Shown here: positions 50-26,866 of the stretch, one piece after another
Numbering within the stretch: position 1 is the stretch's first letter
Layout: each line of letters begins with the position of its first letter
Source of the DNA: a virus
Virus genome (UHGV): UHGV-0115055
Length of the DNA: 32,028 nt
Direction: 5' to 3' (one strand)
The notes under the pieces: generated by a model
The model's database searches: none
Seen by the model: only the letters and a program-made list of their open reading frames with translations
Told to the model about the DNA's origin: nothing
Program-made: the position numbers and the translations under genes

Positions 50-1063
50 TTACTCTACTGTGGACACTGTGTGGACACTCTCGGCCTCAGTACCACCTCT
101 TAGCGGATTAAGAGAAATGGCGTCCTGAAGGTACTCTGGCGCAAAATGAGCGTAAACCATAGTTTGTTCAATCCGCGTGTGACCTAGTATCCGTTGTAGC
201 GTGATAATACTTCCTCCATTAATCATGAAATGAGTGGCAAAGCTGTGCCTTAGTGCATGTGTGGCTTGCCCCATTGGCAAATCCGGTTTTATTGCTTTCA
301 TTGTTCGTCTGAAGCGAGGGTAATCAGCATCAGGGAATAAAAAACCTCGTTTGTTATCCGCGATCATTTTGGCAACAGCCTCTGAGATCGGGACGGTGCG
401 TGGTTTGTTTGTTTTCGTTTTAACAAACGTGACGCGGTTATGGATGATATTTTCTGCTTTCAAACGAGCTGCTTCTCCCCAACGTGCTCCAGTACTCAGG
501 CAAAGAATCGCAATCTTTTTATTGTCGCCGTCAAGAGCAGCAAGCAGTAAGGCAATTTCTTCCTGCGTGAGATAGCCTGTGTCTGGTTTTTCCTCCTTAA
601 GCTTTTTTGTCCCTCTGATAGGGTGCTCACCAAAGAATAACTCCGCTTCAATCAGGGCTGTAAACATGCCGCTAATACATGTTAAATCACGATTGATACT
701 CGAAGGTTTAATACCCTGACTTCTTCGGGTGGCGCAGTACTGGCTGATAAGCGATTTCGTAATTTGAAATGCGCATGGGTCATTCGTTATTTTTGTGAAG
801 ATTTCAATTTTTCCAAGATTAGATTTCCCATGCTCTTCGTGTTTACCCTTTAAATCCCACCAGATCTGTGTCAGCTCCGACAGACGTCGCTTGTCTGTTG
901 GTTTTGATAGCCATTCTTTATTGTGGTGGTTGTACAACGTGTATTTCTCGAAAGCGACAGCTTCGCTTTTCTTATCAAACTTCCTACGGATGCGTTTTCC
1001 ATTACGTCCAGTAGGGCGGATGTCCACTTCATATCGACCATCATCGAGTTTTTTGATTGCCAT
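50..1063 (-). CDS. int: tyrosine site-specific integrase (P2 Int-like)
   Basis: 337 aa; C-terminal catalytic region HALRHSFATH...LGHTRIEQTMVYAHF carries the tyrosine-recombinase R/H-x-x-R/Y signature; GGAGGG RBS upstream of ATG at 1063; first gene of a P2-ordered prophage. Confidence 0.93.
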   Translation of the reverse strand: MAIKKLDDGRYEVDIRPTGRNGKRIRRKFDKKSEAVAFEKYTLYNHHNKEWLSKPTDKRRLSELTQIWWDLKGKHEEHGKSNLGKIEIFTKITNDPCAFQITKSLISQYCATRRSQGIKPSSINRDLTCISGMFTALIEAELFFGEHPIRGTKKLKEEKPDTGYLTQEEIALLLAALDGDNKKIAILCLSTGARWGEAARLKAENIIHNRVTFVKTKTNKPRTVPISEAVAKMIADNKRGFLFPDADYPRFRRTMKAIKPDLPMGQATHALRHSFATHFMINGGSIITLQRILGHTRIEQTMVYAHFAPEYLQDAISLNPLRGGTEAESVHTVSTVE

Positions 1064-2049: not shown

Positions 2050-2546
2050 CAGTGATGACGCTCAATCTCGTTGAAAAACAGCCAGCAGCTATGCGCCGGA
2101 TAATTGGTAAGCATCTTGCCGTTCCTCGCTGGCAGGATACATGTGATTATTATAATCAGATGATGGAGCGCGAACGGCTAACGGTTTGCTTTCATGCGCA
2201 GTTAAAACAGCGTCACGCAACGATGCGTTTTGAAGAAATGAACGACGTCGAACGTGAACGACTGGTTTGTGCAATTGATGAATTGCGTGGCGCATTCTCA
2301 AAACGCCGTCAGGTCGGCGCAAGTGAGTATGCATATATTAGTTTTTTAACAGTCAGTCAGCGTCGTACTTTATTTATGCATGCCGGATTGACTGAAAAAG
2401 AATTCAACCAGCCATACTGGCGAATTAATGAAGAATCATGTTACTGGCGTGATGCTTTATTCCGTGCATTACGTGAATTATTCAGTCTGTTTGAGTATGC
2501 ACCGACAATTCTGACGTCGGTAAAACCAGAGCAATATCTGCATTAA
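2046..2546 (+). CDS. B: P2 gpB-like replication-associated protein (helicase-loading role in P2)
   Basis: 166-168 aa, matching P2 B in size and position between cox and orf80-83/A. Function inferred from synteny only. Confidence 0.6.
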   Translation: MTVMTLNLVEKQPAAMRRIIGKHLAVPRWQDTCDYYNQMMERERLTVCFHAQLKQRHATMRFEEMNDVERERLVCAIDELRGAFSKRRQVGASEYAYISFLTVSQRRTLFMHAGLTEKEFNQPYWRINEESCYWRDALFRALRELFSLFEYAPTILTSVKPEQYLH

Positions 2547-2609
2547 ATAATTAACCAGAGTTTTTAACGCACTTAATCGTGCGGAGCTTCTTTTTGCCTG
2601 GAGAAAGTC

Positions 2610-2834
2610 ATGCATACAGTTTCTGAAAATCAGTGCGGTAAATACGCATTACTGCTGCAACAGGCCAGAACCGAAGCACAGGCCGACGCTGCGACGCGCT
2701 TTTCTTCTCATCTTGACGCCATGATTCGCCACATCACAAAGGCGGAGTTATCCCGCGTGGAGATAGTTGAGCTGCTCAGTCAGGAGTCGGAAAAATTTCA
2801 CAATATCGGATTGTCTCGCGGGGAGGTGCTTTGA
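2610..2834 (+). CDS. hypothetical early protein (P2 orf80 position)
   Basis: 74 aa ORF in the early operon; start overlaps neighbouring genes in operon fashion. Confidence 0.6.
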
Positions 2835-3136
2835 TGTCCTGTTCTCGTTCGGTTGTATTACTGAATAACGCCTTAAAAATCGCCGTTATGAAAAATGGTG
2901 ATTTGTCTCTTATTCAACTTGGTCTTGATAAAGAAAAACGCGAAATAACTGAGTCTGTTATCGCGATTTATCAGAACGAATTAAATCTCCTGTCTGATGT
3001 GGTCAATTTACTTGTTAAACGCGCTGTATTTCACAAGAAAATCTCCTCCGTGGATGAACTGACAAAATTAACGACAGAAATTGCCAGCTATTGCGCTGAT
3101 GAATTTAAAAAACTTAACGACAAAAGGAGCTGGTAA
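2831..3136 (+). CDS. hypothetical early protein (P2 orf81 position)
   Basis: 101 aa; ATGA overlap with the upstream ORF stop, indicating translational coupling. Confidence 0.6.
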
Positions 3137-3360
3137 TGCCGGACAACGTAGATTTTATTCAGGAACAACAGGCTGAATTACTGGAGCGTCAGATTAACGC
3201 GGCAAGGGTAAAACATTGCGGTGCTTCTGCGCTGGTTTGCGAAGAGTGTGACGCGCCAATACCTGCTGCCCGTCGTGCGGCTTATCCGTCAGCCACGCGT
3301 TGTGTTTCCTGTCAGTCAGTCTTTGAAGCAAAAAACAAACATTACCGGAGAACGGCATGA
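3136..3360 (+). CDS. TraR/DksA-family C4 zinc-finger protein (P2 orf82 position)
   Basis: 74 aa with CxxC-x17-CxxC arrangement (CEECDAP...CVSCQ), typical of TraR/DksA-type zinc fingers. Confidence 0.75.
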   Translation: MPDNVDFIQEQQAELLERQINAARVKHCGASALVCEECDAPIPAARRAAYPSATRCVSCQSVFEAKNKHYRRTA

Positions 3361-3632
3361 GTATTCGTATTGAAATTGGCGAACGTTATGTCGTTACCAG
3401 TGACAGCTTTCAGTTTATTCTCCACGAGAAAAAGAGAGCGGAAAGCGGTAAAAACGCCGGTCAGGAATGGCTGGCGGTGGTTGGTTATTACCCGAAATTA
3501 AGCCAGCTCGTTTCCGGCCTGATGCATCACGATATTCTGACCGGAAGCGCAAAATCTTTTGCTGATTTAAACGCGCAGGTTGAGCAACTCAGCAGGCGTT
3601 GTTCAGAGGCTTTTGGCTCACATGGACGTTAA
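3357..3632 (+). CDS. hypothetical early protein (P2 orf83 position)
   Basis: 91 aa ORF immediately upstream of A, overlapping its start. Confidence 0.6.
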   Translation: MSIRIEIGERYVVTSDSFQFILHEKKRAESGKNAGQEWLAVVGYYPKLSQLVSGLMHHDILTGSAKSFADLNAQVEQLSRRCSEAFGSHGR

Positions 3633-5907
3633 AGCCTCCGGGCGTTTTGTCCCTCCGTCAGCATTTGCCGCAGGCACCGGTAAGACGTTTACCGGTGCTT
3701 ATGCATGGAACGCGCCACGCGAGGCCGTCGGGCGCGAAAGACCCCTTACACGTGACGAGATGCGTCAGGTGCAAGGTGTTTTATCCACGATTAACCGCCT
3801 GCCTTACTTTTTGCGTTCGCTGTTTACTTCACGCTATGACTACATCCGGCGCAATAAAAGCCCGGTGCACGGGTTTTATTTCCTCACATCCACTTTTCAG
3901 CGTCGTTTATGGCCGCGCATTGAGCGCGTGAATCAGCGCCATGAAATGAACACCGACGCGTCGTTGCTGTTTCTGGCAGAGCGTGACCACTATGCGCGCC
4001 TGCCTGGAATGAATGACAAGGAGCTGAAAAAGTTTGCCGCCCGTATCTCATCGCAGCTTTTCATGATGTATGAGGAACTCTGCGATGCATGGGGTGATGC
4101 GCATGGTGAAAAAGAATCGCTGTTTACGGATGAGGCGCAGGCTCACCTCTATGGTCATGTTGCTGGCGCTGCACGTGCTTTCAATATTTCCCCGCTCTAC
4201 TGGAAAAAATACCGTAAAGGACAGATGACCACGAGGCAGGCATATTCTGCCATTGCCCGTCTGTTTAACGATGAGTGGTGGATTAGTCAGCTTAAAGGCC
4301 AGCGTATGCGCTGGCATGAGGCGTTACTGATTGCTGTCGGGGAGGTCAATAAAGACCGTTCTCCTTATGCCAGTAAACATGCCATTCGTGATGTGCGTGC
4401 GCGCCGCCAGGCAAATCTGGAATTTCTTAAATCGTGTGACCTTGAAAACAGGGAAACCGGCGAGCGCATCGACCTTATCAGTAAGGTGATGGGCAGTATT
4501 TCTAATCCTGAAATTCGCCGGATGGAGCTGATGAACACCATTGCCGGTATTGAGCGTTACGCCGCCGCAGAGGGTGATGTGGGGATGTTTATCACGCTGA
4601 CCGCGCCGTCAAAGTATCACCCGACACGTCAGGTCGGAAAAGGCGAAAGTAAAACCGTTCAGCTTAATCACGGCTGGAACGATGAGGCATTTAATCCAAA
4701 GGATGCGCAGCGTTATCTCTGCCGTATCTGGAGCCTGATGCGCACGGCATTCAAGGATAATGATTTACAGGTCTACGGTTTGCGAGTCGTCGAGCCACAC
4801 CACGACGGAACGCCGCACTGGCATATGATGCTTTTTTGTCATCCACGCCAGCGTAACCAGATTATCGAAATCATGCGTCGCTATGCGCTCAAAGAGGATG
4901 GCGACGAAAGAGGAGCCGCGCGAAACCGTTTTCAGGCAAAACACCTTAACCGGGGCGGTGCTGCGGGATATATCGCGAAATACATTTCAAAAAACATCGA
5001 CGGCTATGCACTGGATGGTCAGCTCGATAACGACACCGGCAGGCCGCTGAAAGACACTGCAGCGGCTGTTACCGCATGGGCGTCAACGTGGCGCATTCCG
5101 CAATTTAAAACAGTTGGCCTGCCGACAATGGGGGCTTACCGTGAACTACGCAAATTGCCTCGCGGCGTCAGCATTGCTGATGAGTTTGACGAGCGCGTCG
5201 AGGCTGCACGCGCCGCCGCAGACAGTGGTGATTTTGCGTTGTATATCAGCGCGCAGGGTGGGGCAAATGTCCCGCGCGATTGTCAGACTGTCAGGGTCGC
5301 CCGTAGCCCGTCGGATGACGTTAACGAGTATGAGGAAGAAGTCGAGAGAGTGGTCGGCATTTACGCGCCGCATCTCGGCGCGCGTCATATTCATATCACC
5401 AGAACGACGGACTGGCGCATTGTGCCGAAAGTTCCGGTCGTGGAGCCTTTGACTTTAAAAAGCGGCATCGCCGCGCCTCGGAGTCCTGTCAATAACTGTG
5501 GAAAGCTCACCGGTGGTGATACCTCGTTACCGGCTCCCACACCTTCTGAACACGCCGCAGCAGTGCTTAATCTGGTTGATGATGGTGTTATCGAATGGAA
5601 TGACCCGGAGGTCGTGAGGGCGCTCAGGGGGGCATTAAAACACGGCCTGAGAACATCTAATCGTCAGCAAAGAAACGGAAGCCCGTTAAAACCACATGAA
5701 ATAGCACCGTCGGCCAGACTGACCCGGTCGGAACGATTGCAAATTACCCGTATCCGCGTTGACCTCGCTCAGAACGGTATCAGGCCGCAACGATGGGAGC
5801 TTGAGGTGCTGGCGCGTGGCGCGACCGTAAATTATGACGGGAAAAAATTCACGTATCCGGTCGCTGATGAGTGGCCGGGATTCTCAACAGTAATGGCGCG
5901 GATATAA
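3622..5907 (+). CDS. A: rolling-circle replication initiation endonuclease (P2 gpA-like)
   Basis: ~761 aa from ATG at 3622 (track ORF begins at 3580 but overlaps orf83; the MDVKASGRFVPP start fits P2 A). Contains HUH-type motif (HHDGTPHWHMMLF) and catalytic-tyrosine region (GYIAKYISKN) typical of rolling-circle initiators. Confidence 0.93.
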   Translation: MDVKASGRFVPPSAFAAGTGKTFTGAYAWNAPREAVGRERPLTRDEMRQVQGVLSTINRLPYFLRSLFTSRYDYIRRNKSPVHGFYFLTSTFQRRLWPRIERVNQRHEMNTDASLLFLAERDHYARLPGMNDKELKKFAARISSQLFMMYEELCDAWGDAHGEKESLFTDEAQAHLYGHVAGAARAFNISPLYWKKYRKGQMTTRQAYSAIARLFNDEWWISQLKGQRMRWHEALLIAVGEVNKDRSPYASKHAIRDVRARRQANLEFLKSCDLENRETGERIDLISKVMGSISNPEIRRMELMNTIAGIERYAAAEGDVGMFITLTAPSKYHPTRQVGKGESKTVQLNHGWNDEAFNPKDAQRYLCRIWSLMRTAFKDNDLQVYGLRVVEPHHDGTPHWHMMLFCHPRQRNQIIEIMRRYALKEDGDERGAARNRFQAKHLNRGGAAGYIAKYISKNIDGYALDGQLDNDTGRPLKDTAAAVTAWASTWRIPQFKTVGLPTMGAYRELRKLPRGVSIADEFDERVEAARAAADSGDFALYISAQGGANVPRDCQTVRVARSPSDDVNEYEEEVERVVGIYAPHLGARHIHITRTTDWRIVPKVPVVEPLTLKSGIAAPRSPVNNCGKLTGGDTSLPAPTPSEHAAAVLNLVDDGVIEWNDPEVVRALRGALKHGLRTSNRQQRNGSPLKPHEIAPSARLTRSERLQITRIRVDLAQNGIRPQRWELEVLARGATVNYDGKKFTYPVADEWPGFSTVMARI

Positions 5908-6210
5908 TGACAAAGATTCACAAAGTAAAGCTGCACGCAAGATATTTCAACCTTGTGCTGGAGGGAAAAGAAACGCACAGAATTTAGGGGGATAGCCGTT
6001 ATCATGTGTATGAAGCACTTGAAATGTATCTGCATCACTTGGGAGTGTGTCAACGGGGAATTTCCATCTATGTGATTTTTTGAGAGCAATGCAGTGAAGA
6101 TAAAGATACTTATTATAAATCAATGTGATAGATGGTGCCTCGCAAACGTAAATGATAGTTTTGAAGCTTCAGGGCTGATGTCGTTCATAAGACTATGTTT
6201 ACGCTATCAT

Positions 6211-6241
6211 TTATGATAAAAATAATTAATTTTTATCATAA
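6211..6241. promoter_or_regulatory. 31-bp perfect palindrome (13-bp arms TTATGATAAAAAT / ATTTTTATCATAA, 5-bp spacer AATTA) immediately upstream of the island 1 nuclease-like gene; candidate operator
   Basis: Read directly from sequence; lies 17-23 bp upstream of the likely start codons (6258/6264). Confidence 0.5.
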
Positions 6242-6257
6242 AGATTCAACAGAGGAT

Positions 6258-7769
6258 ATGTTGATGAATCAACTAAAATCAATGAATATCAATAAGTTAC
6301 TTTTGGATGTTGATAACCCTCGTTTCCCGACGTCAGCAGAAAATCAGCGTGATGCTATTGCCAAGATGCTTGACATGCAGTACGACCGCATTTATCGCTT
6401 GGCTAAAGATATTGCTTCGAAAGGTTTAGATCCGTCTGAAAACATATTAGTTTATCCTAGTGAAGAGGAATCTGGCTTTTTCGTCGTTGCTGAAGGTAAT
6501 CGTCGAGTTACAGCCCTTAAACTTTTACACTCTCCTAGACTTGCACCAACAGAAAAAGCACGGAAAGCTTTTGAAAAACTTAAGATTACTCAGCTTAAAG
6601 ATATTAATGTTATAGATAACTGCGTTCTTTTTGACGATGATGAATATGAGCATTGGGTCAATTTAAAGCATACTGGTCAAAATGCTGGAGTTGGAAGAGT
6701 TGAATGGACTGCAACAGAAAAAGCACGACATCTGGCTAGGATGGGTAAGCAGTCATTTGGTAATCAAATACTTACATTTATAGAGTTCAATACTGATTTA
6801 TATAAAGAGATAATTGCTAAAAAAAGACTTTTAAAAATCACAAACATCACGCGTCTTTTTGGTGATTTAAAGGTGAGGGATTATTTTAATTTAAAAAGCA
6901 TTAATGGAGTTCTATACTCATATCAGCCTTATGAACGTTTTTGTGCACAATTAAAAAATATTTTAGATGTAATGATTGAAGAGGATGATAAAGGTAAGGC
7001 TTGTTTTACTGTTAATAGGATTCGTAGCCAAGATGACAGGGTTACATTTATTATTGAACAAAAAATAAAACCTTCAGAATCTCTTTTAGATAAGCCGTGG
7101 AGTTTACTGGAGCCTAAATCTTTTCTTACAGAGAAAAAACATGATTCTATTGACAAGAATGATGCATCTGTGAGTGTAAAGAAAGTAGGTCTTTCAGAAG
7201 GTGATGCCTTAAAGAATACAGGTGTGGATAAACAGGAAGATGATTATTCTAGACATGTAGGCACAGAAGAGAGTAAATCTAAAGTTTCGGGCACGGAACA
7301 GAATAAAAACAAGGGAAAAACTCCTCCTAAAGTAGATCGTAATGTGTTGGTGCCATCTTATGTGAAATTTAATTTTAGAGGGCATAAGAAATGCTCTAGA
7401 ATATTTAATGAGCTTAAGTCGCATCTGACATTTGATAACACCCCTAATGCTATCTCAATATTGTTGAGAATATTTATAGATCTCTCTGTAAGCACTTTTG
7501 TTGAAGAAAACAAGTTACAATTTAAGGAACCACATAGAACTCCAGGGCTTCATGATAAGGTTAAAATGTGTGCTAATTTCCTTCGGGAAAATAAAAAGAT
7601 GACGGGGAGTCAATGTACGGCTGTAATAACTTTCTCGAGCCAAATAACTAAACATGATGGTTCATTGCAGCAGTATGTACATAACCCACACTTAATTCCC
7701 TCAAAAGAGGCTGTCAACACTGAGTGGGATAACTTTGAGTTGTTATTAAGCCTTATTTGGAGTGAGTGA
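6258..7769 (+). CDS. ParB/Srx-like N-terminal domain protein (putative nuclease or NTP-dependent DNA-binding effector), cargo gene
   Basis: Track ORF 6195-7769 (524 aa); likely start at ATG 6258 or 6264 (GAGGA at 6252-6256; the palindrome would otherwise be inside the coding region). N-terminus has ParB-box-like motifs: LLLDVDNPRFP (like the ParB ...NP.QPR motif) and VVAEGNRRVTALKLL (like GxRRxxA). A K/E/S-rich low-complexity linker near 7100-7350 precedes an uncharacterised C-terminal domain. AT-rich codon usage unlike the backbone. Confidence 0.7.
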   Translation: MLMNQLKSMNINKLLLDVDNPRFPTSAENQRDAIAKMLDMQYDRIYRLAKDIASKGLDPSENILVYPSEEESGFFVVAEGNRRVTALKLLHSPRLAPTEKARKAFEKLKITQLKDINVIDNCVLFDDDEYEHWVNLKHTGQNAGVGRVEWTATEKARHLARMGKQSFGNQILTFIEFNTDLYKEIIAKKRLLKITNITRLFGDLKVRDYFNLKSINGVLYSYQPYERFCAQLKNILDVMIEEDDKGKACFTVNRIRSQDDRVTFIIEQKIKPSESLLDKPWSLLEPKSFLTEKKHDSIDKNDASVSVKKVGLSEGDALKNTGVDKQEDDYSRHVGTEESKSKVSGTEQNKNKGKTPPKVDRNVLVPSYVKFNFRGHKKCSRIFNELKSHLTFDNTPNAISILLRIFIDLSVSTFVEENKLQFKEPHRTPGLHDKVKMCANFLRENKKMTGSQCTAVITFSSQITKHDGSLQQYVHNPHLIPSKEAVNTEWDNFELLLSLIWSE

Positions 7770-7838
7770 GATTTGTCTACATCTGGACATGGATGTCCAG
7801 AAACTGATAAACTACAAAATCAGGAATGAGAGGGATTT

Positions 7839-8723
7839 ATGAAATTTTATACTCCATTAAGATACCCCGGCGGGAAAGGTAAGTTATCTTACTTTTTAAA
7901 AGATGTTATTGAAAAAAACTCGTTGAATGATGGAGCATATGCAGAACCTTACGCTGGTGGTGCAGGGGTGGCTTTAGAATTATTATTGGAAGAGTATGTC
8001 CGTAAAATCTATATAAATGATGCAGATTTTGCTGTTTATTCTTTTTGGTCATCTGTTGTTAGTGATACTGATGAGCTTTGCCGACTTATTAGCCGAGCAA
8101 AGATAGATATGGATGAATGGTCTTTTCATCGCTATGTTATTTCGAATCCTTCTGAGTTTACTAAGCTTGAGGTTGGCTTTGCTGCGTTTTTCTTAAATAG
8201 AACAAATCGTTCAGGTATTCTCAAGGCGGGGGTTATAGGCGGGAAATCACAAAATGGAAAATGGAAAATGGATGTTCGCTTTAACAGGGCGGATTTAATT
8301 TCAAGAATTGAGAAGATAGCAAATTATAATCAAAGAATAGTAGTAACTAATCTGGATGCTTTGGATTTTCTTGATGCCTTGAATTTTATGGATAATATGG
8401 GAAAGGTGGATAAAAATAAAATTCTTTTGTATTTGGATCCTCCTTACTATATTAAAGGGCAAGGGCTTTACAGGAATTTTTATGAGCATGATGACCATGT
8501 ATTGGTTATGAAGAAACTCACAGAAATTAATTTCCCAAATTGGCTTGTTTCTTATGATAACGCTAAAGAAATTAAAGATATTTATAATGGATTTCCGCAA
8601 GTTGAGTATTCATTGCAATATACAGCGCATCTCAAAAAATCTGGAGAGGAAGTGATGATTTTTTCTCCTGAAATAATTATTCCTAATACCCTGAAAGGGG
8701 TCTCAATGCCAACTTGCGCCTGA
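7839..8723 (+). CDS. D12-class (Dam-like) N6-adenine DNA methyltransferase, cargo gene
   Basis: 294 aa; N-terminal YPGGKGKL (Dam family GGK motif), AdoMet-binding motif I AEPYAGGAGV, catalytic motif IV LDPPYY. RBS GAGAGG upstream. AT-rich. Confidence 0.88.
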   Translation: MKFYTPLRYPGGKGKLSYFLKDVIEKNSLNDGAYAEPYAGGAGVALELLLEEYVRKIYINDADFAVYSFWSSVVSDTDELCRLISRAKIDMDEWSFHRYVISNPSEFTKLEVGFAAFFLNRTNRSGILKAGVIGGKSQNGKWKMDVRFNRADLISRIEKIANYNQRIVVTNLDALDFLDALNFMDNMGKVDKNKILLYLDPPYYIKGQGLYRNFYEHDDHVLVMKKLTEINFPNWLVSYDNAKEIKDIYNGFPQVEYSLQYTAHLKKSGEEVMIFSPEIIIPNTLKGVSMPTCA

Positions 8724-8870
8724 TTTTACTTATTTTTTGTCAGTAAGTAATTAGTTTGGTGCATTTATTTGCATTCATTTTTAAATGCCAGTTCTGGCAT
8801 CTAACATCAGTGCTGGCGCATTCTAACCATTACTGCTGCACTGCATTTAAAGCCCTGCATGAAGCGGGCG

Positions 8871-8889
8871 GGCGAGGCGGGGAAAGCAC
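8871..8889. other. cos: cos site, candidate 19-nt cohesive end GGCGAGGCGGGGAAAGCAC
   Basis: GC-rich 19-mer located where P2 cos lies (between accessory region and Q); sequence matches my recollection of the P2 cohesive end, not verified against a reference. Confidence 0.6.
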
Positions 8890-9029
8890 TGCGCGCTGGC
8901 GGTGGTGCTGATTTTATTTTTTCAGCGTCTGAGCGCGTCGTGATGGCGTTTAGATTGTTCGCCGGGGCGTTGGTGTGTCTGCGGGCTGTTTTGTGCGGTG
9001 GTGAGCGTGTGAGGGCGTGATGGCGGGTT

Positions 9030-9058: not shown

Positions 9059-10093
9059 TCAGCCGTTGTCAGTGTCCAGTGAGTAGTTTTTAAAGCGGAT
9101 GACCTCCTGACCGAGCCAGCCGTTTATTTCCCGAATCCTGTCCTGTAACGGGATTAGCTCATTGCGGACAAAGACCTTTGCCACTTTCTCAATATCGCCC
9201 AGTGACCCGACGTTCTCCGGCTTGCCACCCATCAACTGAAAGGGGATGCGGTGTGCGTCCAGCAGGTCAGCGGCGCTGGCTTTTTTGATATTAAAAAAAT
9301 CGTCCTTCGTCGCCACTTCACTGAGCGGGATAATTTTAATGCCGTCGGCTTTCCCCTGCGGGGCATAGAGAAACAGGTTTTTAAAGTTGTTGCGGCCTTT
9401 CGACTTCACCATGTTTTCGCGAAGCATTTCGATATCGTTGCGATCCTGCACGGCATCGGTAACGTACATGATGTATCCGGCATGTGCGCCGTTTTCGTAA
9501 TACTTGCGGCGGAACAGCGTGGCCGACTCATTCAGCCAGGCAGAGTTAAGGGCGCTGAGATATTCCGGCAGGCCGTACAGCTCCTGATTAATATCCGGCT
9601 CCAGCAGGTGAAACACGGAGCCGGGCGTGAAAGGTGTCGGCTCGTTGAAGGACGGCACCCACCAGTAAACATCCTCCTCCACGCCACGACGGGTATATTT
9701 GGCCGGTGAGGTTTCCAGTCTGATGACCTTACCGGTGGTGCTGTAACGCTTTTCCAGAAACGCATTACCGAACACCAGAAAATCCAGCACAAAGCGGCTG
9801 AAATCCTGCTGGGAAAGCCACGGATGCGGGATAAACGTTGAGGCCAGAATATTACGTTTGACGTAAATCGGTGAGCTGTGATGCACGGCAGCACGCAGGC
9901 TTTTTGCCAGACCGGTAAAGCTGACCGGTGGCTCATACCATCTGCCGTTACTGATGCATTCGACGTAATCCAGAATGTCACGGCGGTCGAGTACCGGCAC
10001 CGGCTCGCCAAAGGTGAATGCCTCCATTTTCGGGGCGCTGGCGGTCATTGTTTTTGCCGCTGGTCGCGGTGTTTTCCCTTTTTTCTTGCTCAT
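9059..10093 (-). CDS. Q: portal (capsid vertex) protein
   Basis: 344 aa as in P2 Q; adjacent to cos and divergent from the O-N-M-L capsid operon. Confidence 0.93.
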   Translation of the reverse strand: MSKKKGKTPRPAAKTMTASAPKMEAFTFGEPVPVLDRRDILDYVECISNGRWYEPPVSFTGLAKSLRAAVHHSSPIYVKRNILASTFIPHPWLSQQDFSRFVLDFLVFGNAFLEKRYSTTGKVIRLETSPAKYTRRGVEEDVYWWVPSFNEPTPFTPGSVFHLLEPDINQELYGLPEYLSALNSAWLNESATLFRRKYYENGAHAGYIMYVTDAVQDRNDIEMLRENMVKSKGRNNFKNLFLYAPQGKADGIKIIPLSEVATKDDFFNIKKASAADLLDAHRIPFQLMGGKPENVGSLGDIEKVAKVFVRNELIPLQDRIREINGWLGQEVIRFKNYSLDTDNG

Positions 10094-11895
10094 CAGTAAA
10101 ACTCCAGAATGGTGGATGTCAGCGGGGTGCTGATACCCGCGGTGAGTGGCTCATTTAACAGGGCATGCATGGTCGCCCAGGCGAGGTCGGCGTGGCTGGC
10201 TTCCTCGCTGCGGCTGGCCTCATAGGTGGCGCTGCGTCCGCTGCTGGTCATGGTCTTGCGGATAGCCATAAACGAGCTGGTGATGTCGGTGGCGCTGACG
10301 TCATATTCCAGACAGCCACGGCGAATAACGTCTTTTGCCTTGAGCACCATTGCGGTTTTCATTTCCGGCGTGTAGCGGATGTCGCGCGCGGCGGGATAGA
10401 ACGAGCGCACGAGCTGGAACACGCCGACACCGAGGCCGGTGGCATCAATACCGATGTATTCGACGTTGTATTTTTCGGTGAGTTTGCGGATGGATTCAGC
10501 CTGAGTGGCAAAGTCCATGCCTTTCCACTGGTGACGCTCAAGGATCCTGAATTTGCCACCGGCCACCACCGGCGGTGCCAGTACCACGCATCCGGCGCTG
10601 TCGCCACGGTGTGACGGATCGTAACCAATCCATACCGGGCGTGAGCCGAACGGATTGGCGGCAAACGGCGCATAGTCTTCCCATTCTTCCAGCGTGTCGA
10701 CCATGCAGCGTTGCAGCTCCTCGAACGGGAACACCGACGCCTTGTCGTCAACAAATTCACACATGAACAGGTTTTTAAAATCGTCGGCGCTGTTTTCACG
10801 TTTGAGCTGCTCAATGTCGAACAGTGTGCAGCCACCTTTCAGGGCGTCCTCAATGGTGACAATCTGCCGCCACTGGCCGTCCGCACAGAGAAGACCTCCG
10901 GCAAGGGCGTTATGACTGACGTCGATTTCCACGCGTTCGGCGGCGCTGGCGCGTCCCCGGTTGAACAGTTCACCCGACCAGAACGGGTAGGCGTCGTGCG
11001 CCAGTGTGGACGGGGTGGAGAAATAGGTCGAGCGCAGGTGACTCTGTGAGGCCATACCTGATGCCACCTTACGCAGTACCTGAAAATTCGGGATCCAGAA
11101 AATCTCATCGACGTACAGGTCGCCGTTATGGCTCTGCGCGGTGTTGGAGTTGGTGCCGAGAAAAATCAGTTTTGCGCCGTTATTGCCCAGGACAATCGGG
11201 TCACCGGTCAGGTCAACGTCAACCAGCCGGGCAAAGGCGATGATGTATTCGCGGAACACATACGCCTGCGTTTTACTGGCCGACAGAAAAATCTGGTTAT
11301 GACCGGTTTTCAGGGCGCGCAGCAGCGCCTCGCGGGAAAAATAAAACGTCGCGCCAATCTGGCGGGATTTCAGGATATCGCGGATGCGGTGCTCAAGCCC
11401 GGCGCGATACCAGTGCAACTGATAGTCGAAAGACTGCTCAAAGAAAATCTGCTCCAGCTTTTCGATGGCCTCGTCACTGAAAAAATTCTTTTTCGGTTTG
11501 CGACGCCCGCCTTTGTTGCGGTTAGCGACGTTCGGATTAAGGTCTGCCTCGTTGCCGGTCTGACTGTAGCGGTTGACCCGCGCCAGTCGTTCAATCTGGC
11601 GTCCCAGCAGGTCAATTTCCTTGAAGTCACCGCCGGTTTTCTGCGGTTTGATGATGAGCTGGGTCAGCCGCGCTTCCAGACTCATTTCGACACGGCTGAT
11701 GGGGGCAACGCTGTCCCAGCCGTCGCGCTGTTTCCAGCTCTGCACCGTCGGGCGTTTCATCTGCAACATGGCGGCAATCTGCGGCACGGAAAACCCCTGC
11801 CAGTACAGCAGCGCCGCCTGACGACGCGGATCGTGTAAAAGAGTGGTGTCTGTGGTGATGGTCATGAATACCTCGCCGTGATGAATACACGGCAA
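10093..11895 (-). CDS. P: terminase large subunit (ATPase)
   Basis: 600 aa, position and size of P2 P; overlaps Q start by one base (coupled). Confidence 0.92.
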   Translation of the reverse strand: MPCIHHGEVFMTITTDTTLLHDPRRQAALLYWQGFSVPQIAAMLQMKRPTVQSWKQRDGWDSVAPISRVEMSLEARLTQLIIKPQKTGGDFKEIDLLGRQIERLARVNRYSQTGNEADLNPNVANRNKGGRRKPKKNFFSDEAIEKLEQIFFEQSFDYQLHWYRAGLEHRIRDILKSRQIGATFYFSREALLRALKTGHNQIFLSASKTQAYVFREYIIAFARLVDVDLTGDPIVLGNNGAKLIFLGTNSNTAQSHNGDLYVDEIFWIPNFQVLRKVASGMASQSHLRSTYFSTPSTLAHDAYPFWSGELFNRGRASAAERVEIDVSHNALAGGLLCADGQWRQIVTIEDALKGGCTLFDIEQLKRENSADDFKNLFMCEFVDDKASVFPFEELQRCMVDTLEEWEDYAPFAANPFGSRPVWIGYDPSHRGDSAGCVVLAPPVVAGGKFRILERHQWKGMDFATQAESIRKLTEKYNVEYIGIDATGLGVGVFQLVRSFYPAARDIRYTPEMKTAMVLKAKDVIRRGCLEYDVSATDITSSFMAIRKTMTSSGRSATYEASRSEEASHADLAWATMHALLNEPLTAGISTPLTSTILEFY

Positions 11896-20725: not shown

Positions 20726-23347
20726 ATGAGCACGAAATTTAAAACCGTTATCACTACTGCCGGAGCCGCAAAGCTGGCAGCCGCCACTGTCCCCGGCGGG
20801 AAAAAAGTAACTCTGTCTGCAATGGCCGTGGGTGACGGTAATGGCAAATTGCCGGTGCCGGATGCTGGTCAGACGAAACTGGTGCATGAGGTCTGGCGTC
20901 ACGCCCTGAATAAAGTCAGCGTGGATAATAAGAATAAAAACTATATCGTGGCTGAACTGGTTGTACCGCCCGAAGTGGGCGGCTTCTGGATGCGTGAGCT
21001 TGGTTTGTATGACGATGCCGGAACACTGATTGCGGTCGCCAACATGGCGGAAAGCTATAAGCCAGAACTGGCTGAAGGCTCCGGACGTGCGCAGACCTGC
21101 CGCATGGTTGTTATTGTCAGCAACGTGTCGTGCGTTGAGCTGAGTATTGATGCCAGCACAGTGATGGCGACGCAGGATTACGTCGATGACAAAATCGCAG
21201 AGCATGAGCAGTCCCGCCGCCATCCTGACGCCACGCTGACAGAAAAAGGTTTTACTCAGTTAAGCAGTGCAACAAACAGCACCAGTGAAAAGCAGGCTGC
21301 AACGCCAAAGGCAGTAAAAGCAGCCTATGACAATGCTGAGAAACGTCTGCAGAAAGACCAGAACGGTGGCGATATTCCAGATAAGGGCGCTTTTCTGGAC
21401 AATATTGGCGTTACCAGCCTGACGTTTATGAAACACAATGGAATGATTCCAACCACTGACAATCTTGACTCCTATGGCCCAGAAGAAAAATATCTTGGAA
21501 CGTGGTCATGTCCGTCACAATCCACTGCAAAACCAGAGTCTGGTTACCCTGAAGATAAAGGCAATGGGGTTCTGGAAGTATTCAATGCTGGTCGCTTTCA
21601 CTGCACACAACGCTACACCACCCGAACCGGTAATATTTACATTCGGATGCTTGATGCAGAATGGAACCCAGCCAGTCCAACATGGAGTGCATGGAGAGTT
21701 ATTACAAGCGGGACTCGACCATTAAGCACGTCAATTGACCTGAATTCTTTAGGTGGTGCGGAACACCTGGGAATATGGCGCAATAGCAGTACATCAATAG
21801 CCTCATTTGACCGTCATTTCCCGGAGGAAGGGAGTTTTGGGCAGGGTATTCTGGAAGTCTTTGAAGGCGGTCTGTATGGGAGGATGCAACGTTACACCAC
21901 CCGTAGTGGGACTATGTACATTCGCGGACTGACTGCCTCATGGGATGCAGAAAATCCACAATGGGAGGACTGGATTGCTGTTGGGTATCAGTCCACGGGA
22001 TGGACTTATTCAGGGGATCTTGATGACCTTTTAAAGCCTGGTATTTATAGCGTTACGAAACAGGCCACAAATGCACCTGTCACCGACTCTAAAGATCTTG
22101 CTGTTGGCTCAATAGTTGAAGTGAAAAAACGTTGTGATATTGAATCGTATATCCAGACATACACGACTGTTTCAGCAACGGATGCCTATAAAAACCGGAC
22201 ATTTCAGCGAACCCGCGCCAGCGGTGAAACTGACTGGGGGGAATGGGCGGAAGTATACAACTCAAAATCATTACTCACTAAATTAGGTGTCGGCGGTGTT
22301 ACCGACAGGTTATCCAGTCTGGACTGGCAGACCTACGACTTTATACCGGGCAGCATGATAACTGTCAGGCTTTCAGATATGACCAATATTCCCGATGGGA
22401 TGGAATGGGGCGTCATTGATACTAACCTGATAAATATCACTGTTGGCCCCAGTGAAGGCGGAGGTGTCGCCCGTTCAATGCATGTATGGCGCAGCACTTC
22501 AAACAAAACCAACTATCGTTTTTTTACAGTCCGCTTATATGGCAATCCTGGGGAGCGTAGCTTCAATATTCGTCGGCTACCAATTATCGACGAAGCCCAG
22601 ACATGGGAGGCAAAACAGACATTCAGTGCAGGCCTTTCTGGTGAACTGTCCGGCAATGCGGCTACAGCAACAAAGCTGAAAACGGCAAGGACAATTAACG
22701 GCGTAAAATTTGACGGCTCGGCAAATATTGAAGCGTTTCCGCCTGGTGTTCCGCTGCCGTGGCCATCAGATACACCACCTGCAGGCTATGCAATCATGCA
22801 GGGGCAGACGTTTGATAAGGCAGCATATCCGAAACTGGCTATAGCCTATCCTTCTGGTGTTATTCCTGATATGCGCGGCTGGACAATCAAGGGCAAACCC
22901 GCCAGTGGGCGTGCTGTATTGTCACAGGAACAGGACGGGATTAAATCGCATACTCACAGTGCCAGTGCGTCAAATACGGATTTGGGAACGAAAACAACCA
23001 GTTCGTTTGATTACGGCACGAAGACGGTCAGTACGTTTAATCATGGCACAAAATCAACGAACAATACGGGCAATCATACGCACACTGTCGGTGGTGTTTA
23101 TGGCGGCGACTCTGTCGGTGGAAAACAGCGTGTACAGGCTTCAGGAAACAATCAGGTGTCCAGCACCGCCGGAGCGCACGCCCATACGGTGGATATTGGT
23201 CAGCATAACCACACTGTAGGTATTGGTGCCCATGCACACACTGTGGCCCTGGGTGCGCACGGACACACCATCACGGTAAATGCTACGGGTAATACCGAAA
23301 ACACCGTCAAAAACATCGCATTTAACTATATTGTGAGGCTTGCATAA
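20726..23347 (+). CDS. H: tail fibre protein H (mosaic: conserved N-terminal anchor, divergent receptor-binding distal part)
   Basis: 873 aa, longer than P2 H (669 aa). N-terminal ~160 aa are P2-H-like; the remainder has an internal duplicated ~50 aa domain and a C-terminal array of H-x-H-T repeats; GC content drops in the distal part. Confidence 0.9.
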
Positions 23348-23925
23348 TGGCTTTCAGAATGAGTGCAGAAGCACAAACTATCCGCGTTTTCAATTTACTT
23401 GATGGAACCAATGAATTTATTGGTGAAAGTGACGCATATATTCCGCCGCATACAGGTCTGCCTGCAAACAGTACAGATATTGCACCGCCTGATATTCCTG
23501 CTGGTTATGCAGCCGTTTTCAATGCAGATGAAATGAAATGGGAACTGATGGAAGACCATCGCGGAAAGACCGTCTATGAAACGAAAACGGGAGCAGCCAT
23601 TTATATTTCTGAACTTGGCGTATTACCTCCAGACGTGACAGCCATTTCCCCGGATGGGGATTATCAGAAATGGAACGGCAATGCGTGGGTGAATGATGAG
23701 AATGCAGAGCGTGATGCGCTTGTCAGAGCGGCTGACTCTCAGAAGAAAGAGCTGATTGCATATGCAGGTGAAATTATTGCCACTCTGCAGGATGCTGTCG
23801 ATTTAGATATGGCTACCGAGGAAGAAAAGTTAAGCCTGACACACTGGAAAAAATACCGTGTGCTACTGAATCGCGTTCAGCCGGAAAATGCCCCGGATAT
23901 TGAATGGCCGAAAATGCCGCAATAA
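23347..23925 (+). CDS. G: tail fibre assembly chaperone G
   Basis: 192 aa directly downstream of H with ATAATG overlap; position of P2 G. Confidence 0.85.
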
Positions 23926-24492: not shown

Positions 24493-25374
24493 ATGGATAA
24501 AAATAAATTGGTTAAATTTTCACTAGTCGAAAACGCCTTGGATTCTATTGAGCTAGGTTTGGAGTATTTTTACGAAGCAAAAAAAGAATTCACGCCACGT
24601 AAATATAAACAATGCCTAATTAATATGTTTCATGGCTCGGAGTTAATCCTGAAAGAAATATTGAGTAGGATAAATATTATACTCATATTCGACAAAAACT
24701 CTTTATTTAAAATTTGCAAAGATCCTTTAAGTCCTACTGGGGATGAGTTGTATAAATTAAAATCAATAGATATTAATAGCTTATGCGATGAGGTTGTGAA
24801 GCATTATCCGGACGAGTTTAAAGGAAAGCTTAATATTGTCAAGGGCCTAGCTAGAGAAAGAAACAAGATACAGCATTTTGCAATCGAAATATCACCAGAG
24901 ATATTATCAAGGTTACTCTCAAGTCTTTACATTGATGTTTTTAAGCCATCCTTTAAAATAATTTTATCTGAGCTTGATTATGTTAATCAATACAATTCGC
25001 TGATTGAAAGGCAGATTATAGGTGCTGAAAAGACATTTCTTAAAATACAAGGTGATACTGATAACTATTTAGCTCTTTGTCCAAAGTGCGAGAACCATTC
25101 TCACTTTATATTGTACAAAGGTACGGGTTACCCTGTTGAGACCTATTGTATTTGCTGTGATTATAAAAATACAGATATTGACATATCAGATTATCTGGTA
25201 TGTCCTGAATGCGGATTCCCGTCATTGATATTTGATGAAAAAAATAATGCAGGAGTCTGCCTCAACGAGAAGTGTTACTATGGAATACAAGGTGGATTCG
25301 TAGAAATGGAACCATGTGAAAATTGTGATGGCTTTATTATTGAAGGTTCATGCCCAGAATGTGATACGGATTGA
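24493..25374 (+). CDS. cargo protein: putative HEPN-like domain fused to three C-terminal Cys4 zinc-ribbon units; candidate single-gene anti-phage (abortive infection) effector
   Basis: 293 aa in a strongly AT-rich island at the P2 Z/fun position. R-N-x3-H motif (ARERNKIQHF) typical of HEPN RNases in a predicted helical N-terminal region; C-terminus has paired Cys motifs CPKC..CICC, CPEC..CLNEKC, CENC..CPEC. Possible extended -10 promoter (TGaTAATAA around 24428-24436) upstream. Confidence 0.7.
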   Translation: MDKNKLVKFSLVENALDSIELGLEYFYEAKKEFTPRKYKQCLINMFHGSELILKEILSRINIILIFDKNSLFKICKDPLSPTGDELYKLKSIDINSLCDEVVKHYPDEFKGKLNIVKGLARERNKIQHFAIEISPEILSRLLSSLYIDVFKPSFKIILSELDYVNQYNSLIERQIIGAEKTFLKIQGDTDNYLALCPKCENHSHFILYKGTGYPVETYCICCDYKNTDIDISDYLVCPECGFPSLIFDEKNNAGVCLNEKCYYGIQGGFVEMEPCENCDGFIIEGSCPECDTD

Positions 25375-25675: not shown

Positions 25676-26866
25676 ATGAGTGACTATCATCACGGCGTGC
25701 AGGTGCTGGAGATTAACGACGGCACCCGCGTCATTTCCACCGTATCAACCGCCATTGTCGGCATGGTCTGCACAGCCAGCGATGCGGATGCGGAAACCTT
25801 CCCCCTCAATAAACCGGTGCTGATTACCAATGTGCAGAGCGCAATTGCAAAGGCTGGTAAAAAAGGCACGCTGGCGGCATCGTTGCAGGCCATCGCCGAC
25901 CAGTCAAAACCGGTCACCGTTGTCGTGCGTGTGGAAGACGGCACCGGCGACGACGAGGAAACGAAACTCGCGCAGACCGTTTCCAATATCATCGGCACCA
26001 CCGACGAAAACGGTCAGTACACCGGACTGAAAGCCCTGCTGGCGGCGGAGTCGGTAACCGGTGTTAAACCGCGTATTCTCGGTGTGCCGGGGCTGGATAC
26101 CAAAGAGGTGGCTGTTGCACTGGCATCCGTCTGTCAGAAGCTGCGCGCTTTCGGGTATATCAGCGCATGGGGCTGTAAAACCATTTCCGAGGTGAAAGCC
26201 TACCGTCAGAATTTCAGCCAGCGTGAGCTGATGGTCATCTGGCCGGATTTCCTCGCATGGGATACGGTCACCAGTACCACCGCCACCGCGTATGCCACCG
26301 CCCGTGCGCTGGGTCTGCGTGCCAGAATCGACCAAGAGCAGGGCTGGCATAAAACGCTGTCCAACGTCGGGGTAAACGGTGTTACCGGCATCAGTGCGTC
26401 CGTATTCTGGGATTTGCAGGAGTCCAGCACCGATGCTGACCTGCTGAACGAGTCAGGTGTCACAACGCTGATTCGCCGTGACGGTTTCCGCTTCTGGGGT
26501 AACCGTACCTGCTCTGATGACCCGCTGTTCCTCTTTGAAAACTACACCCGCACCGCGCAGGTGCTGGCCGACACGATGGCTGAGGCGCACATGTGGGCGG
26601 TGGACAAGCCCATCACCGCAACGCTGATTCGCGACATCGTTGACGGCATCAATGCCAAATTCCGAGAGCTGAAAACAAACGGCTATATCGTGGATGCGAC
26701 CTGCTGGTTCAGTGAAGAATCCAACGATGCGGAAACCCTCAAGGCCGGAAAACTGTATATCGACTACGACTATACCCCGGTGCCTCCTCTTGAAAACCTG
26801 ACCCTGCGCCAGCGTATTACTGATAAATACCTGGCAAATCTGGTCACCTCGGTTAACAGCAATTAA
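25676..26866 (+). CDS. FI: contractile tail sheath protein
   Basis: 396 aa, P2 FI size and position. Confidence 0.93.
   Translation: MSDYHHGVQVLEINDGTRVISTVSTAIVGMVCTASDADAETFPLNKPVLITNVQSAIAKAGKKGTLAASLQAIADQSKPVTVVVRVEDGTGDDEETKLAQTVSNIIGTTDENGQYTGLKALLAAESVTGVKPRILGVPGLDTKEVAVALASVCQKLRAFGYISAWGCKTISEVKAYRQNFSQRELMVIWPDFLAWDTVTSTTATAYATARALGLRARIDQEQGWHKTLSNVGVNGVTGISASVFWDLQESSTDADLLNESGVTTLIRRDGFRFWGNRTCSDDPLFLFENYTRTAQVLADTMAEAHMWAVDKPITATLIRDIVDGINAKFRELKTNGYIVDATCWFSEESNDAETLKAGKLYIDYDYTPVPPLENLTLRQRITDKYLANLVTSVNSN

What the first reader, a model, noticed from the sequence alone, without database searches (positions are those of the whole stretch)
5908..8870. Cargo island at the P2 tin/old hotspot: ParB/Srx-like protein plus Dam-like methyltransferase, a candidate restriction-modification-like or defense module
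Between replication gene A and cos, where P2 carries orf91/tin/old, this prophage has a visibly AT-rich insert encoding two co-oriented genes: a ~500 aa protein with an N-terminal ParB/Srx-like domain (DNPRF and GNRRVTA motifs) and a 294 aa D12-class N6-adenine methyltransferase (YPGGK, AEPYAGGAG, DPPY). This slot is a recognised hotspot for anti-phage systems in P2-like prophages. A ParB-fold protein paired with a Dam-type methylase is not a classical restriction-modification architecture I can name, so it may be an undescribed self/non-self module in which methylation protects the host or phage genome from the ParB-fold effector. The alternative is a phage anti-restriction/epigenetic module.
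Basis: partly seen in the sequence, partly recalled or inferred. Interest (0 to 1): 0.85.

Follow-up and report, generated by a model that had tools for sequence, protein, structure and literature searches.

The report
Known PD-lambda-5 phage-defence cassette in P2 prophage
The two AT-rich genes between the P2 replication gene and cos are a near-identical copy of PD-lambda-5, an anti-phage system already found and shown to work in E. coli in 2022, so the region is real but not new, although how the system works is still unknown.

Summary
An AT-rich insert (33-38% GC, flanks 52-59%) lies between P2 gene A and cos. It carries a 501-aa ParB-fold protein (6264-7769) and a 294-aa D12-class DNA methyltransferase (7839-8723).

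The "undescribed" reading is wrong. Both proteins match the PADLOC models PD-Lambda-5_A and PD-Lambda-5_B over their full length (E 9.5e-168 and 1.4e-121). The methyltransferase is 292/294 identical to RCQ13838.1, the ECOR7 type specimen of PD-lambda-5 (Vassallo et al. 2022). That system was cloned, protected against nine of ten phages, sits in the same P2 hotspot, and was annotated "ParB/HEPN, methyltransferase".

New here:
- Structure prediction supports a ParB/Srx N-domain and a HEPN C-domain. The HEPN lacks the canonical Rx4-6H motif.
- A confidently modelled central domain has no solved structural relative.
- The gene pair is almost obligatory: 71 of 78 viral loci and 5 of 5 other loci.
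- A promoter-like element for the methyltransferase recurs in the intergenic spacer across the family.
- The same methyltransferase clade pairs with an ABC/OLD-like ATPase in about 105 E. coli genomes.
- The closest solved methyltransferase is an N4-cytosine enzyme.

The mechanism (methylation-gated self/non-self with a HEPN effector) remains inference.

The parts
5907..5988 (+). Stub of P2 orf91 (DUF3850), 26 codons plus stop. It marks the left edge of the cargo replacement.
   Evidence: RefSeq annotates the equivalent stretch as a partial DUF3850 pseudogene. Sequence read.
5989..6263 (+). AT-rich leader upstream of gene A, presumed to hold its native promoter. RBS GAGGA at 6252-6256.
   Evidence: Sequence. 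One promoter-like match, TTTACG-17-AATAAT, at 6198-6226 (consensus match only). The validated ECOR7 clone carried 272 bp upstream as its native promoter. The promoter position is inferred.
6264..7769 (+). PD-lambda-5_A, 501 aa. Domains: ParB/Srx N-domain (about aa 1-140), central domain with no solved structural relative (about aa 143-290), disordered low-complexity linker (aa 291-355), HEPN-fold C-domain (aa 356-501).
7782..7801 (+). Perfect inverted repeat TCTGGACAT-gg-ATGTCCAGA just after the stop codon of A. It overlaps the -35 of the promoter-like site.
   Evidence: Sequence. In six related cassettes 90.6% of cells pair, against 25-48% when the partner is slid. Four pairs change on both sides and G-U pairs are tolerated. 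Only six sequences, so support is modest.
7784..7813 (+). Promoter-like element for the methyltransferase gene: -35 TGGACA, 18-nt spacer, extended -10 TGaTAAACT.
   Evidence: Scan. The pattern TGGNCN-N16-18-TANNNT occurs in 17 of 43 distinct A-B spacers of homologous cassettes down to 26% protein identity, against 0.56 +/- 0.74 in shuffles. No transcription data.
7839..8723 (+). PD-lambda-5_B, 294 aa, alpha-class (D12) DNA methyltransferase. RBS GAGAGGG at 7828-7834.
   Evidence: Pfam PF02086, E 3.6e-16. PADLOC PDLC04018, E 1.4e-121. 292/294 identical to RCQ13838.1. The only solved relative by sequence is M.CbeI 7M6B.
8872..8890 (.). P2-type cos (19-nt cohesive-end sequence). The right limit of the hotspot lies just before it.
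   Evidence: The sequence GGCGAGGCGGGGAAAGCAC was read; its identity as P2 cos is from memory. Homology to P2-like phages resumes at about 8833-8840.

Best explanation
This is a copy of the PD-lambda-5 anti-phage system, carried as cargo in hotspot 1 (between gene A and cos/Q) of a P2-like prophage. That identification is essentially certain.

Most likely mechanism, all of it inferred:
1. The methyltransferase PD-lambda-5_B is made from its own intergenic promoter. It marks the resident chromosome and prophage at a short, family-conserved motif. The mark is probably N6-methyladenine.
2. PD-lambda-5_A surveys DNA with its ParB/Srx-type nucleotide-binding N-domain and its central domain of unknown fold.
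3. On unmarked, incoming DNA the ParB-type N-domains engage. This brings two HEPN domains together and switches on the effector. The most likely activity is RNA cleavage that stops phage gene expression, possibly at the cost of the infected cell.
4. Methylation of self DNA keeps the effector off.

This is restriction-modification logic with an abortive-infection-type effector in place of a classical restriction endonuclease.
For: Identity:
- Full-length PADLOC hits to PD-Lambda-5_A and PD-Lambda-5_B.
- The methyltransferase is 99.3% identical to the ECOR7 type protein RCQ13838.1.
- The two-gene span is the same: 2460 bp here, 2461 bp in Table S2.
- The P2 slot is the same.

Function (published, PMC9519451):
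- It had to be cloned in an mrr-deleted host. I read this as evidence that the methyltransferase is active on the chromosome.

Domains:
- Invariant NPR and EGNRR motifs align with ParB QPR and GERR in hhalign.

Coupling:
- A D12 methyltransferase lies immediately 3' of the A homologue in 71 of 78 viral loci and in all 5 other loci examined, down to 26% identity. Of the seven exceptions, four stop at a contig edge, one has a truncated A with a methyltransferase-like ORF next to it, and two have other genes there.
- The methyltransferase, including its target-recognition region, is more conserved than A (49-61% against 32-40% mean pairwise identity).
- A promoter-like element for the methyltransferase recurs across the family.
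- The same methyltransferase clade is paired with a different effector-like ATPase in other prophages, as expected if it supplies a self mark.

Precedent: ParB-HEPN fusions, and HEPN genes in operons with a ParB nuclease and a DNA methylase, were predicted to be R-M/Abi hybrids in 2013 (PMC3710099).
Against: - No experiment I found addresses the mechanism.
- The HEPN domain lacks the canonical Rx4-6H motif. H473 is conserved, no arginine lies 5-7 residues before it, and the invariant R402 sits on another helix. RNase activity is therefore not assured.
- The central domain has no detectable DNA-binding or methyl-reader relative.
- Whether A is toxic without B, and whether phage that escape become modified and resistant, is not reported.
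- T-even phages carry glucosyl-hydroxymethylcytosine and resist most R-M systems, yet they are the best-restricted phages. This fits a reader of adenine methylation, or a trigger that is not DNA methylation at all.
- The closest solved methyltransferase is an N4-cytosine enzyme.
Confidence: 0.55

Rival explanations
1. Restriction by DNA cleavage. The ParB/Srx domain of protein A is itself the nuclease and nicks or cuts unmethylated DNA. The HEPN domain is a regulatory, dimerisation or back-up module. On this reading the system is a true but unconventional restriction-modification pair giving direct immunity.
For: Members of the ParB/Srx superfamily are reported to have nuclease and NTPase activities (Maindola et al. 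2014 and RK2 ParB, as cited in PMC10853773 and PMC12839542). The invariant E77-G-N-R-R and H136-T-G-x-N-x-G-x-G motifs look like an enzymatic site. The HEPN domain lacks the canonical Rx4-6H. The methyltransferase linkage is as tight as in R-M systems.
Against: The best structural matches of the N-domain are CTP-switch DNA clamps and nucleotide binders (KorB, PadC, Noc, ParB, sulfiredoxin), not dedicated nucleases. H473, R402 and E383 of the HEPN domain are as invariant as the ParB motifs, which argues that the HEPN domain is functional. The discoverers describe the system as RM plus Abi.
Confidence: 0.2
2. Two functions that merely travel together. The methyltransferase is a phage anti-restriction or epigenetic enzyme that protects P2-like DNA in new hosts. 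Protein A is a stand-alone abortive-infection protein triggered by a phage protein, not by methylation state.
For: Orphan phage methyltransferases are common. PADLOC also matches B to orphan methyltransferase models, though much more weakly. HEPN Abi proteins often act alone. Strong activity against T-even phages does not require DNA-methylation sensing.
Against: Near-obligate adjacency over a family spanning 25-100% identity and many genomic contexts. In ~105 E. coli genomes the same methyltransferase clade is found paired with a defence-type ATPase. These patterns are what self-marking partners show, not independent cargo.
Confidence: 0.12
3. An ordinary ParB-type partition or regulatory protein with an orphan methylase, with no role in defence.
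For: A weak NCBIfam hit to plasmid partition RepB (E 0.014, 14.8 bits). One database entry names a homologue an IbrB-like regulator.
Against: The RepB score is far below the cut-off of 201.5. No ParA gene is adjacent. A C-terminal HEPN domain replaces the ParB dimerisation domain. A virtually identical cassette has published anti-phage activity.
Confidence: 0.02

Closest known systems
PD-lambda-5 (Vassallo et al. 2022, Nat Microbiol, PMC9519451; E. coli ECOR7, RCQ13837.1 and RCQ13838.1; PADLOC PD-Lambda-5_A and _B)
   Same: Same two genes, same order, and essentially the same span (2460 bp here, 2461 bp published). Same P2 hotspot between the replication endonuclease and the portal gene. The methyltransferase is 292/294 identical. 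A matches the family model end to end.
   Different: Nothing of substance: two amino-acid differences in B. A could not be compared directly with RCQ13837.1, because that sequence was not retrievable with these tools.
ParB-HEPN fusions (Saro_3948 type), and MAE_28990 HEPN genes in operons with a ParB nuclease and a DNA methylase (Anantharaman et al. 2013, PMC3710099)
   Same: The same combination of ParB, HEPN and DNA methylase, predicted there to be an R-M/abortive-infection hybrid.
   Different: Those are computational families. I did not test whether this protein belongs to either one. Here the HEPN domain lacks the canonical arginine of Rx4-6H.
PD-T4-2 (DUF262 ParB-like protein plus a HEPN RiboL-PSP protein), and GmrSD/BrxU/SspE (DUF262 ParB-like NTPase fused to an HNH/DUF1524 nuclease)
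   Different: No DUF262 signature and no HNH domain here. Those systems have no methyltransferase partner, and GmrSD and SspE respond to modified DNA rather than unmodified DNA (from my own knowledge).
PrrC-EcoprrI and RloC (an anticodon nuclease guarding a restriction-modification system)
   Same: Restriction-modification logic combined with an RNA-cutting abortive-infection effector. Cited as the analogy for PD-lambda-5 in PMC10799925.
   Different: Those are add-ons to a complete type I R-M system with its own endonuclease. Here no separate restriction endonuclease exists.
M.CbeI (PDB 7M6B), alpha-class N4-cytosine methyltransferase of Caldicellulosiruptor bescii
   Same: The only solved structure detectable by sequence (E 2.3e-12 with the single protein, 9.7e-22 with a profile). 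It aligns over almost the whole length, including DPPY.
   Different: Low identity. The base and motif modified by PD-lambda-5_B are unknown. The published need for an mrr-deleted host fits adenine methylation better (my inference).

Membership tests
PD-lambda-5 defence system | Protein matching the PD-Lambda-5_A profile over its full length | tested here: met
   PDLC03998: E 9.5e-168, 556.8 bits, residues 24-523 of the long ORF against profile positions 1-465 of 466. All 25 listed hits, of 26 families matched, are PD-Lambda-5_A models.
PD-lambda-5 defence system | Adjacent methyltransferase matching the PD-Lambda-5_B profile | tested here: met
   PDLC04018: E 1.4e-121. 292/294 identical to RCQ13838.1 of ECOR7. 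Genes are co-oriented and 69 nt apart.
PD-lambda-5 defence system | ParB N-domain plus HEPN C-domain architecture, as annotated by the discoverers | tested here: met
   [not shown]
PD-lambda-5 defence system | Protects E. coli against phages | not testable with these tools
   Published for the ECOR7 copy. Inferred for this copy from near identity and intact reading frames.
HEPN ribonucleases | Rx4-6H catalytic motif | tested here: not met
   In 103 aligned homologues H473 is 96% conserved, but no arginine lies 5-7 residues upstream (LQQYVHN). The invariant R402 is on a different helix. The fold is HEPN; catalysis is unproven.
Classical type II restriction-modification | A restriction endonuclease with a PD-(D/E)XK, HNH, GIY-YIG or PLD domain next to the methyltransferase | tested here: not met
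   No such domain by Pfam, NCBIfam or PDB profile search or by fold search. No third gene lies in the insert.
ParABS partition / canonical ParB | ParA partner gene, an HTH DNA-binding domain and a C-terminal dimerisation domain | tested here: not met
   [not shown]
ParB/Srx superfamily (fold level) | ParB N-domain fold with the GxRR phosphate-binding motif and the upstream PR motif | tested here: met
   [not shown]
Dam family (NCBIfam TIGR00571) | Score above the family cut-off | tested here: not met
   47 bits against a cut-off of 114.85. No E. coli, T4 or DpnM Dam structure is found even with a profile; only M.CbeI is. The protein does meet Pfam D12 class (60.1 bits against 22).

The most novel reading that the evidence does not exclude
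PD-lambda-5 may be the compact prototype of a broad class of "methylation-gated abortive-infection" modules. In these, a conserved alpha-class methyltransferase with its own promoter supplies the self mark, and interchangeable effectors read the absence of that mark. Two effectors are seen here: a ParB-type nucleotide-switch sensor that assembles a non-canonical HEPN nuclease, and, in about 105 other E. coli genomes, an ABC/OLD-like ATPase. The restriction arm would then act on RNA or on the cell rather than cutting the invading DNA. The central orphan domain of protein A would be a new kind of reader of unmethylated DNA.
Probability: 0.3. Interest if true: 0.65.

Novelty: already known. Interest (0 to 1): 0.22.

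Why it matters
For the genome scan, this flagged region can be closed as a correctly spotted but already catalogued defence system in the expected P2 hotspot.

Some interest remains because PD-lambda-5 gave some of the broadest protection in its screen and still has no published mechanism. The family is large: 3084 clusters at 50% identity with E up to 0.001.

The analysis gives concrete handles for anyone who takes it up:
- a list of invariant residues to mutate;
- a separate, conserved methyltransferase promoter;
- an orphan central domain as the candidate specificity module;
- a warning that the modified base is not established;
- a sister module in which the same methyltransferase clade is paired with an ATPase.

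Tried and rejected
Searches that gave nothing for protein A:
- Pfam and NCBIfam give nothing useful.
- A profile search of PDB sequences finds nothing.
- The cargo has no match in the phage GenBank collection.

Central domain:
- Foldseek alignments to ParB, Noc and KorB ran over 209-287 columns, which suggested a ParB-like HTH domain.

Intergenic palindrome:
- I considered it as a conserved operator. The exact palindrome is not conserved in distant loci.
- What recurs is a hairpin-forming inverted repeat plus a promoter-like TGGNCA...TANNNT element.

TGGCCA motif:
- A recurrent TGGCCA follows the stop codon of A in distant homologues. I considered it as a possible methyltransferase target (GGCC, as for M.CbeI).
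- Its fixed 17-nt distance from a TAnnnT hexamer makes a -35 element the simpler reading.

Other dead ends and rejected families:
- I could not test whether PD-lambda-5-positive genomes lack mrr, because search results cannot be intersected by genome.
- Membership of partition ParB, classical type II R-M, GmrSD-like type IV enzymes and the Dam family was considered and rejected (see the membership table).
Full report
OBSERVATION

The window is a P2-like prophage. It has an integrase ORF at 50-1063 (-) and a gene A-like replication endonuclease ending at 5907 (+). The sequence I recall as the 19-nt P2 cos is at 8872-8890. Portal Q (9059-10093, -) and the large terminase (10093-11895, -) follow.

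Between A and cos the GC content drops to 0.33-0.38, from 0.52-0.59 on either side.

The insert begins after a 26-codon stub of P2 orf91 (DUF3850) at 5907-5988. It ends where homology to P2-like phages resumes, at about 8833-8840.

It holds two co-oriented genes.
- The first is listed as ORF 6195-7769. The GAGGA box at 6252-6256, the RefSeq annotation and every homologue point to ATG 6264, giving 501 aa.
- The second is 7839-8723, 294 aa.

WHAT IT IS

Pfam recognises only the second protein, as a D12-class methyltransferase (E 3.6e-16). NCBIfam gives nothing above its cut-offs.

The PADLOC library is decisive:
- Protein A matches PD-Lambda-5_A end to end (PDLC03998, E 9.5e-168). All 25 listed hits, of 26 families matched, are models of that same component.
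- Protein B matches PD-Lambda-5_B (PDLC04018, E 1.4e-121).

PD-lambda-5 was found by functional selection in E. coli ECOR7 (Vassallo et al. 2022, PMC9519451). The paper's tables describe it as follows:
- "ParB/HEPN, methyltransferase", proteins RCQ13837.1 and RCQ13838.1, with a two-gene span of 2461 bp.
- It lies in a P2-like prophage between the replication endonuclease and the portal gene.
- It was cloned with its native promoter in MG1655 lacking the mrr region.

The window's methyltransferase is in the same 90% cluster as RCQ13838.1 and is 292/294 identical to it. The window's two-gene span is 2460 bp. This is therefore another copy of the published system.

Distribution of this copy:
- The same cassette, at 99% identity or more, is in 22 of 5426 complete E. 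coli genomes, always on the chromosome.
- It also occurs in several IMG/VR P2-like contigs.
- It is absent from the GenBank phage collection.

ANATOMY OF PROTEIN A

I aligned 45 homologues (78-29% identity) and later 103. The invariant residues are N18 and R20 (DxxNPRF), E77-G-N-R-R81, H136, G138, G142 and W148 (a glycine-rich HTGxNxGxG segment), R197, R359, E383, R402 and H473. Residues 291-355 form a variable low-complexity linker.

Foldseek ranks Noc, KorB and Caulobacter ParB first (probability 0.97-1.0).

This firms up the published annotation. The published HEPN support was only 35.6% and 8% HHpred probability.

Two qualifications follow.
- The HEPN domain has no canonical Rx4-6H. The histidine (H473, in QQYVHN) is conserved. 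No arginine precedes it, and the invariant arginine (R402) lies on another helix.

THE METHYLTRANSFERASE

It has the alpha-class motif order and DPPY. It scores below the NCBIfam dam threshold (47 against 114.85).

By sequence, alone or as a profile, the only solved relative is 7M6B. That structure is M.CbeI, an alpha-class N4-cytosine methyltransferase (PMC8616854). The modified base is therefore not settled by sequence. The published need for an mrr-deleted host favours adenine methylation, but that is my inference.

Across 59 cassette pairs the methyltransferase is more conserved than protein A (49-61% against 32-40% mean pairwise identity). Its presumed target-recognition region is not hypervariable. 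This suggests a similar target across the family.

LINKAGE AND CONTEXT

- All four distant homologues I looked up (five loci, 28-46% identity) have a D12 methyltransferase immediately downstream.
- In a scan of viral contigs, 71 of 78 loci have one directly 3' of the A homologue, in 8 cases convergently oriented.
- Of the seven exceptions, four stop at a contig edge. One has a truncated A next to a methyltransferase-like ORF. Two have other genes there, one of which looks like a transposase to me.
- About 22 of the viral loci are in the P2-type A...Q/P slot, including cassettes only 26-45% identical. Others lie in unrelated prophages or between housekeeping genes.
- The family is large: 3084 clusters at 50% identity with E up to 0.001, and 373 with E up to 1e-30. 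Most are 440-515 aa with the same two-block match.

REGULATORY DETAIL NOT IN THE PAPER

The 69-nt spacer contains a perfect inverted repeat (7782-7801). This overlaps a promoter-like site: TGGACA, 18 nt, then TGaTAAACT (7784-7813).
- In six related cassettes the repeat is kept through compensatory and G-U changes. 90.6% of cells pair, against 25-48% when the partner is slid. There are only six sequences.
- The pattern TGGNCN-N16-18-TANNNT is present in 17 of 43 distinct spacers, down to 26% protein identity. Shuffles give 0.56 +/- 0.74.

I read this as a separate, conserved promoter for the methyltransferase. That is the arrangement expected if the modification enzyme must be expressed independently of a dangerous partner. 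It is a sequence inference only.

A SISTER MODULE

About 105 complete E. coli genomes carry a methyltransferase 51% identical to this one. It scores 411 bits on the PD-Lambda-5_B model. Its upstream partner is a 570-577-aa ABC-type ATPase with PtuA-, GajA-, AriA- and ATPase-Toprim-like matches, at prophage ends next to the integrase. The same methyltransferase clade thus serves at least two different partners.

MECHANISM

Shown by others: the cassette defends broadly.

Shown here: the fold assignments, the invariant residues, the near-obligate gene pairing and the promoter-like element.

Inferred:
- The methyltransferase marks self DNA.
- Protein A uses a ParB-type nucleotide-dependent N-domain and the orphan central domain to detect unmarked DNA.
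- Engagement of two N-domains brings two HEPN domains together and activates them.

The main rival is that the ParB domain itself cuts DNA. A weaker rival is that the two genes act independently. I found no mechanistic follow-up in the literature. The 2013 HEPN survey had already predicted ParB-HEPN-methylase combinations to be R-M/Abi hybrids.

VERDICT

It is already known and named, so its novelty as a finding is nil and its interest is low. What interest remains lies in the unresolved mechanism and in the small additions listed above.

Noticed in passing
window 24493-25374 (+): A second AT-rich slot (GC 0.31-0.41) lies between the tail-fibre assembly gene (23347-23925) and the tail sheath gene (25676-26866). 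This is the P2 Z/fun hotspot 2. It holds a 293-aa ORF whose N-terminal half matches the PADLOC candidate PDC-S64 (E 2.6e-22) and PHROG 20819 (unknown function, E 6.1e-80). The C-terminal half is cysteine-rich. It is probably a second defence cargo gene.
   Followed up: partly
L085 2839-5551 (E. coli JJ1887); L086 3223-5862: About 105 of 5426 complete E. coli genomes carry a methyltransferase of the PD-lambda-5_B clade (51% identity, 411 bits on PDLC04018). Here it is paired with a 570-577-aa ABC/OLD-like ATPase instead of ParB-HEPN, at prophage ends next to the integrase. No exact PADLOC system name matched the ATPase.
   Followed up: partly
window 7782-7813 and the A-B spacers of L001-L084: A promoter-like element (TGGNCA, 17-18 nt, TAnnnT) directly after the stop codon of A recurs in 17 of 43 distinct spacers, against 0.56 expected. 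In the close relatives it is overlapped by an inverted repeat that is kept through compensatory and G-U changes.
   Followed up: yes
window 7839-8723: The only solved relative of the "DNA adenine methylase" by sequence is M.CbeI (7M6B). This is an alpha-class N4-cytosine methyltransferase that also has DPPY. The adenine label in databases is therefore an assumption.
   Followed up: partly
[not shown]
   Followed up: yes
RefSeq E. coli chromosomes (for example NZ_CP095856.1, NZ_CM130729.1, NZ_CP191562.1): At least eight complete-genome records place this cassette at exactly 2286/2287-5248/5249 (seven at 2287-5249, one at 2286-5248). That means the record starts at the first base of P2 gene A. 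Presumably genome-rotation software took the phage replication gene for a start gene.
   Followed up: no
window 5907-5988: The stop codon of gene A overlaps the start codon of a 26-codon remnant of orf91 (DUF3850). The cargo therefore replaced everything from inside orf91 to just before cos.
   Followed up: yes
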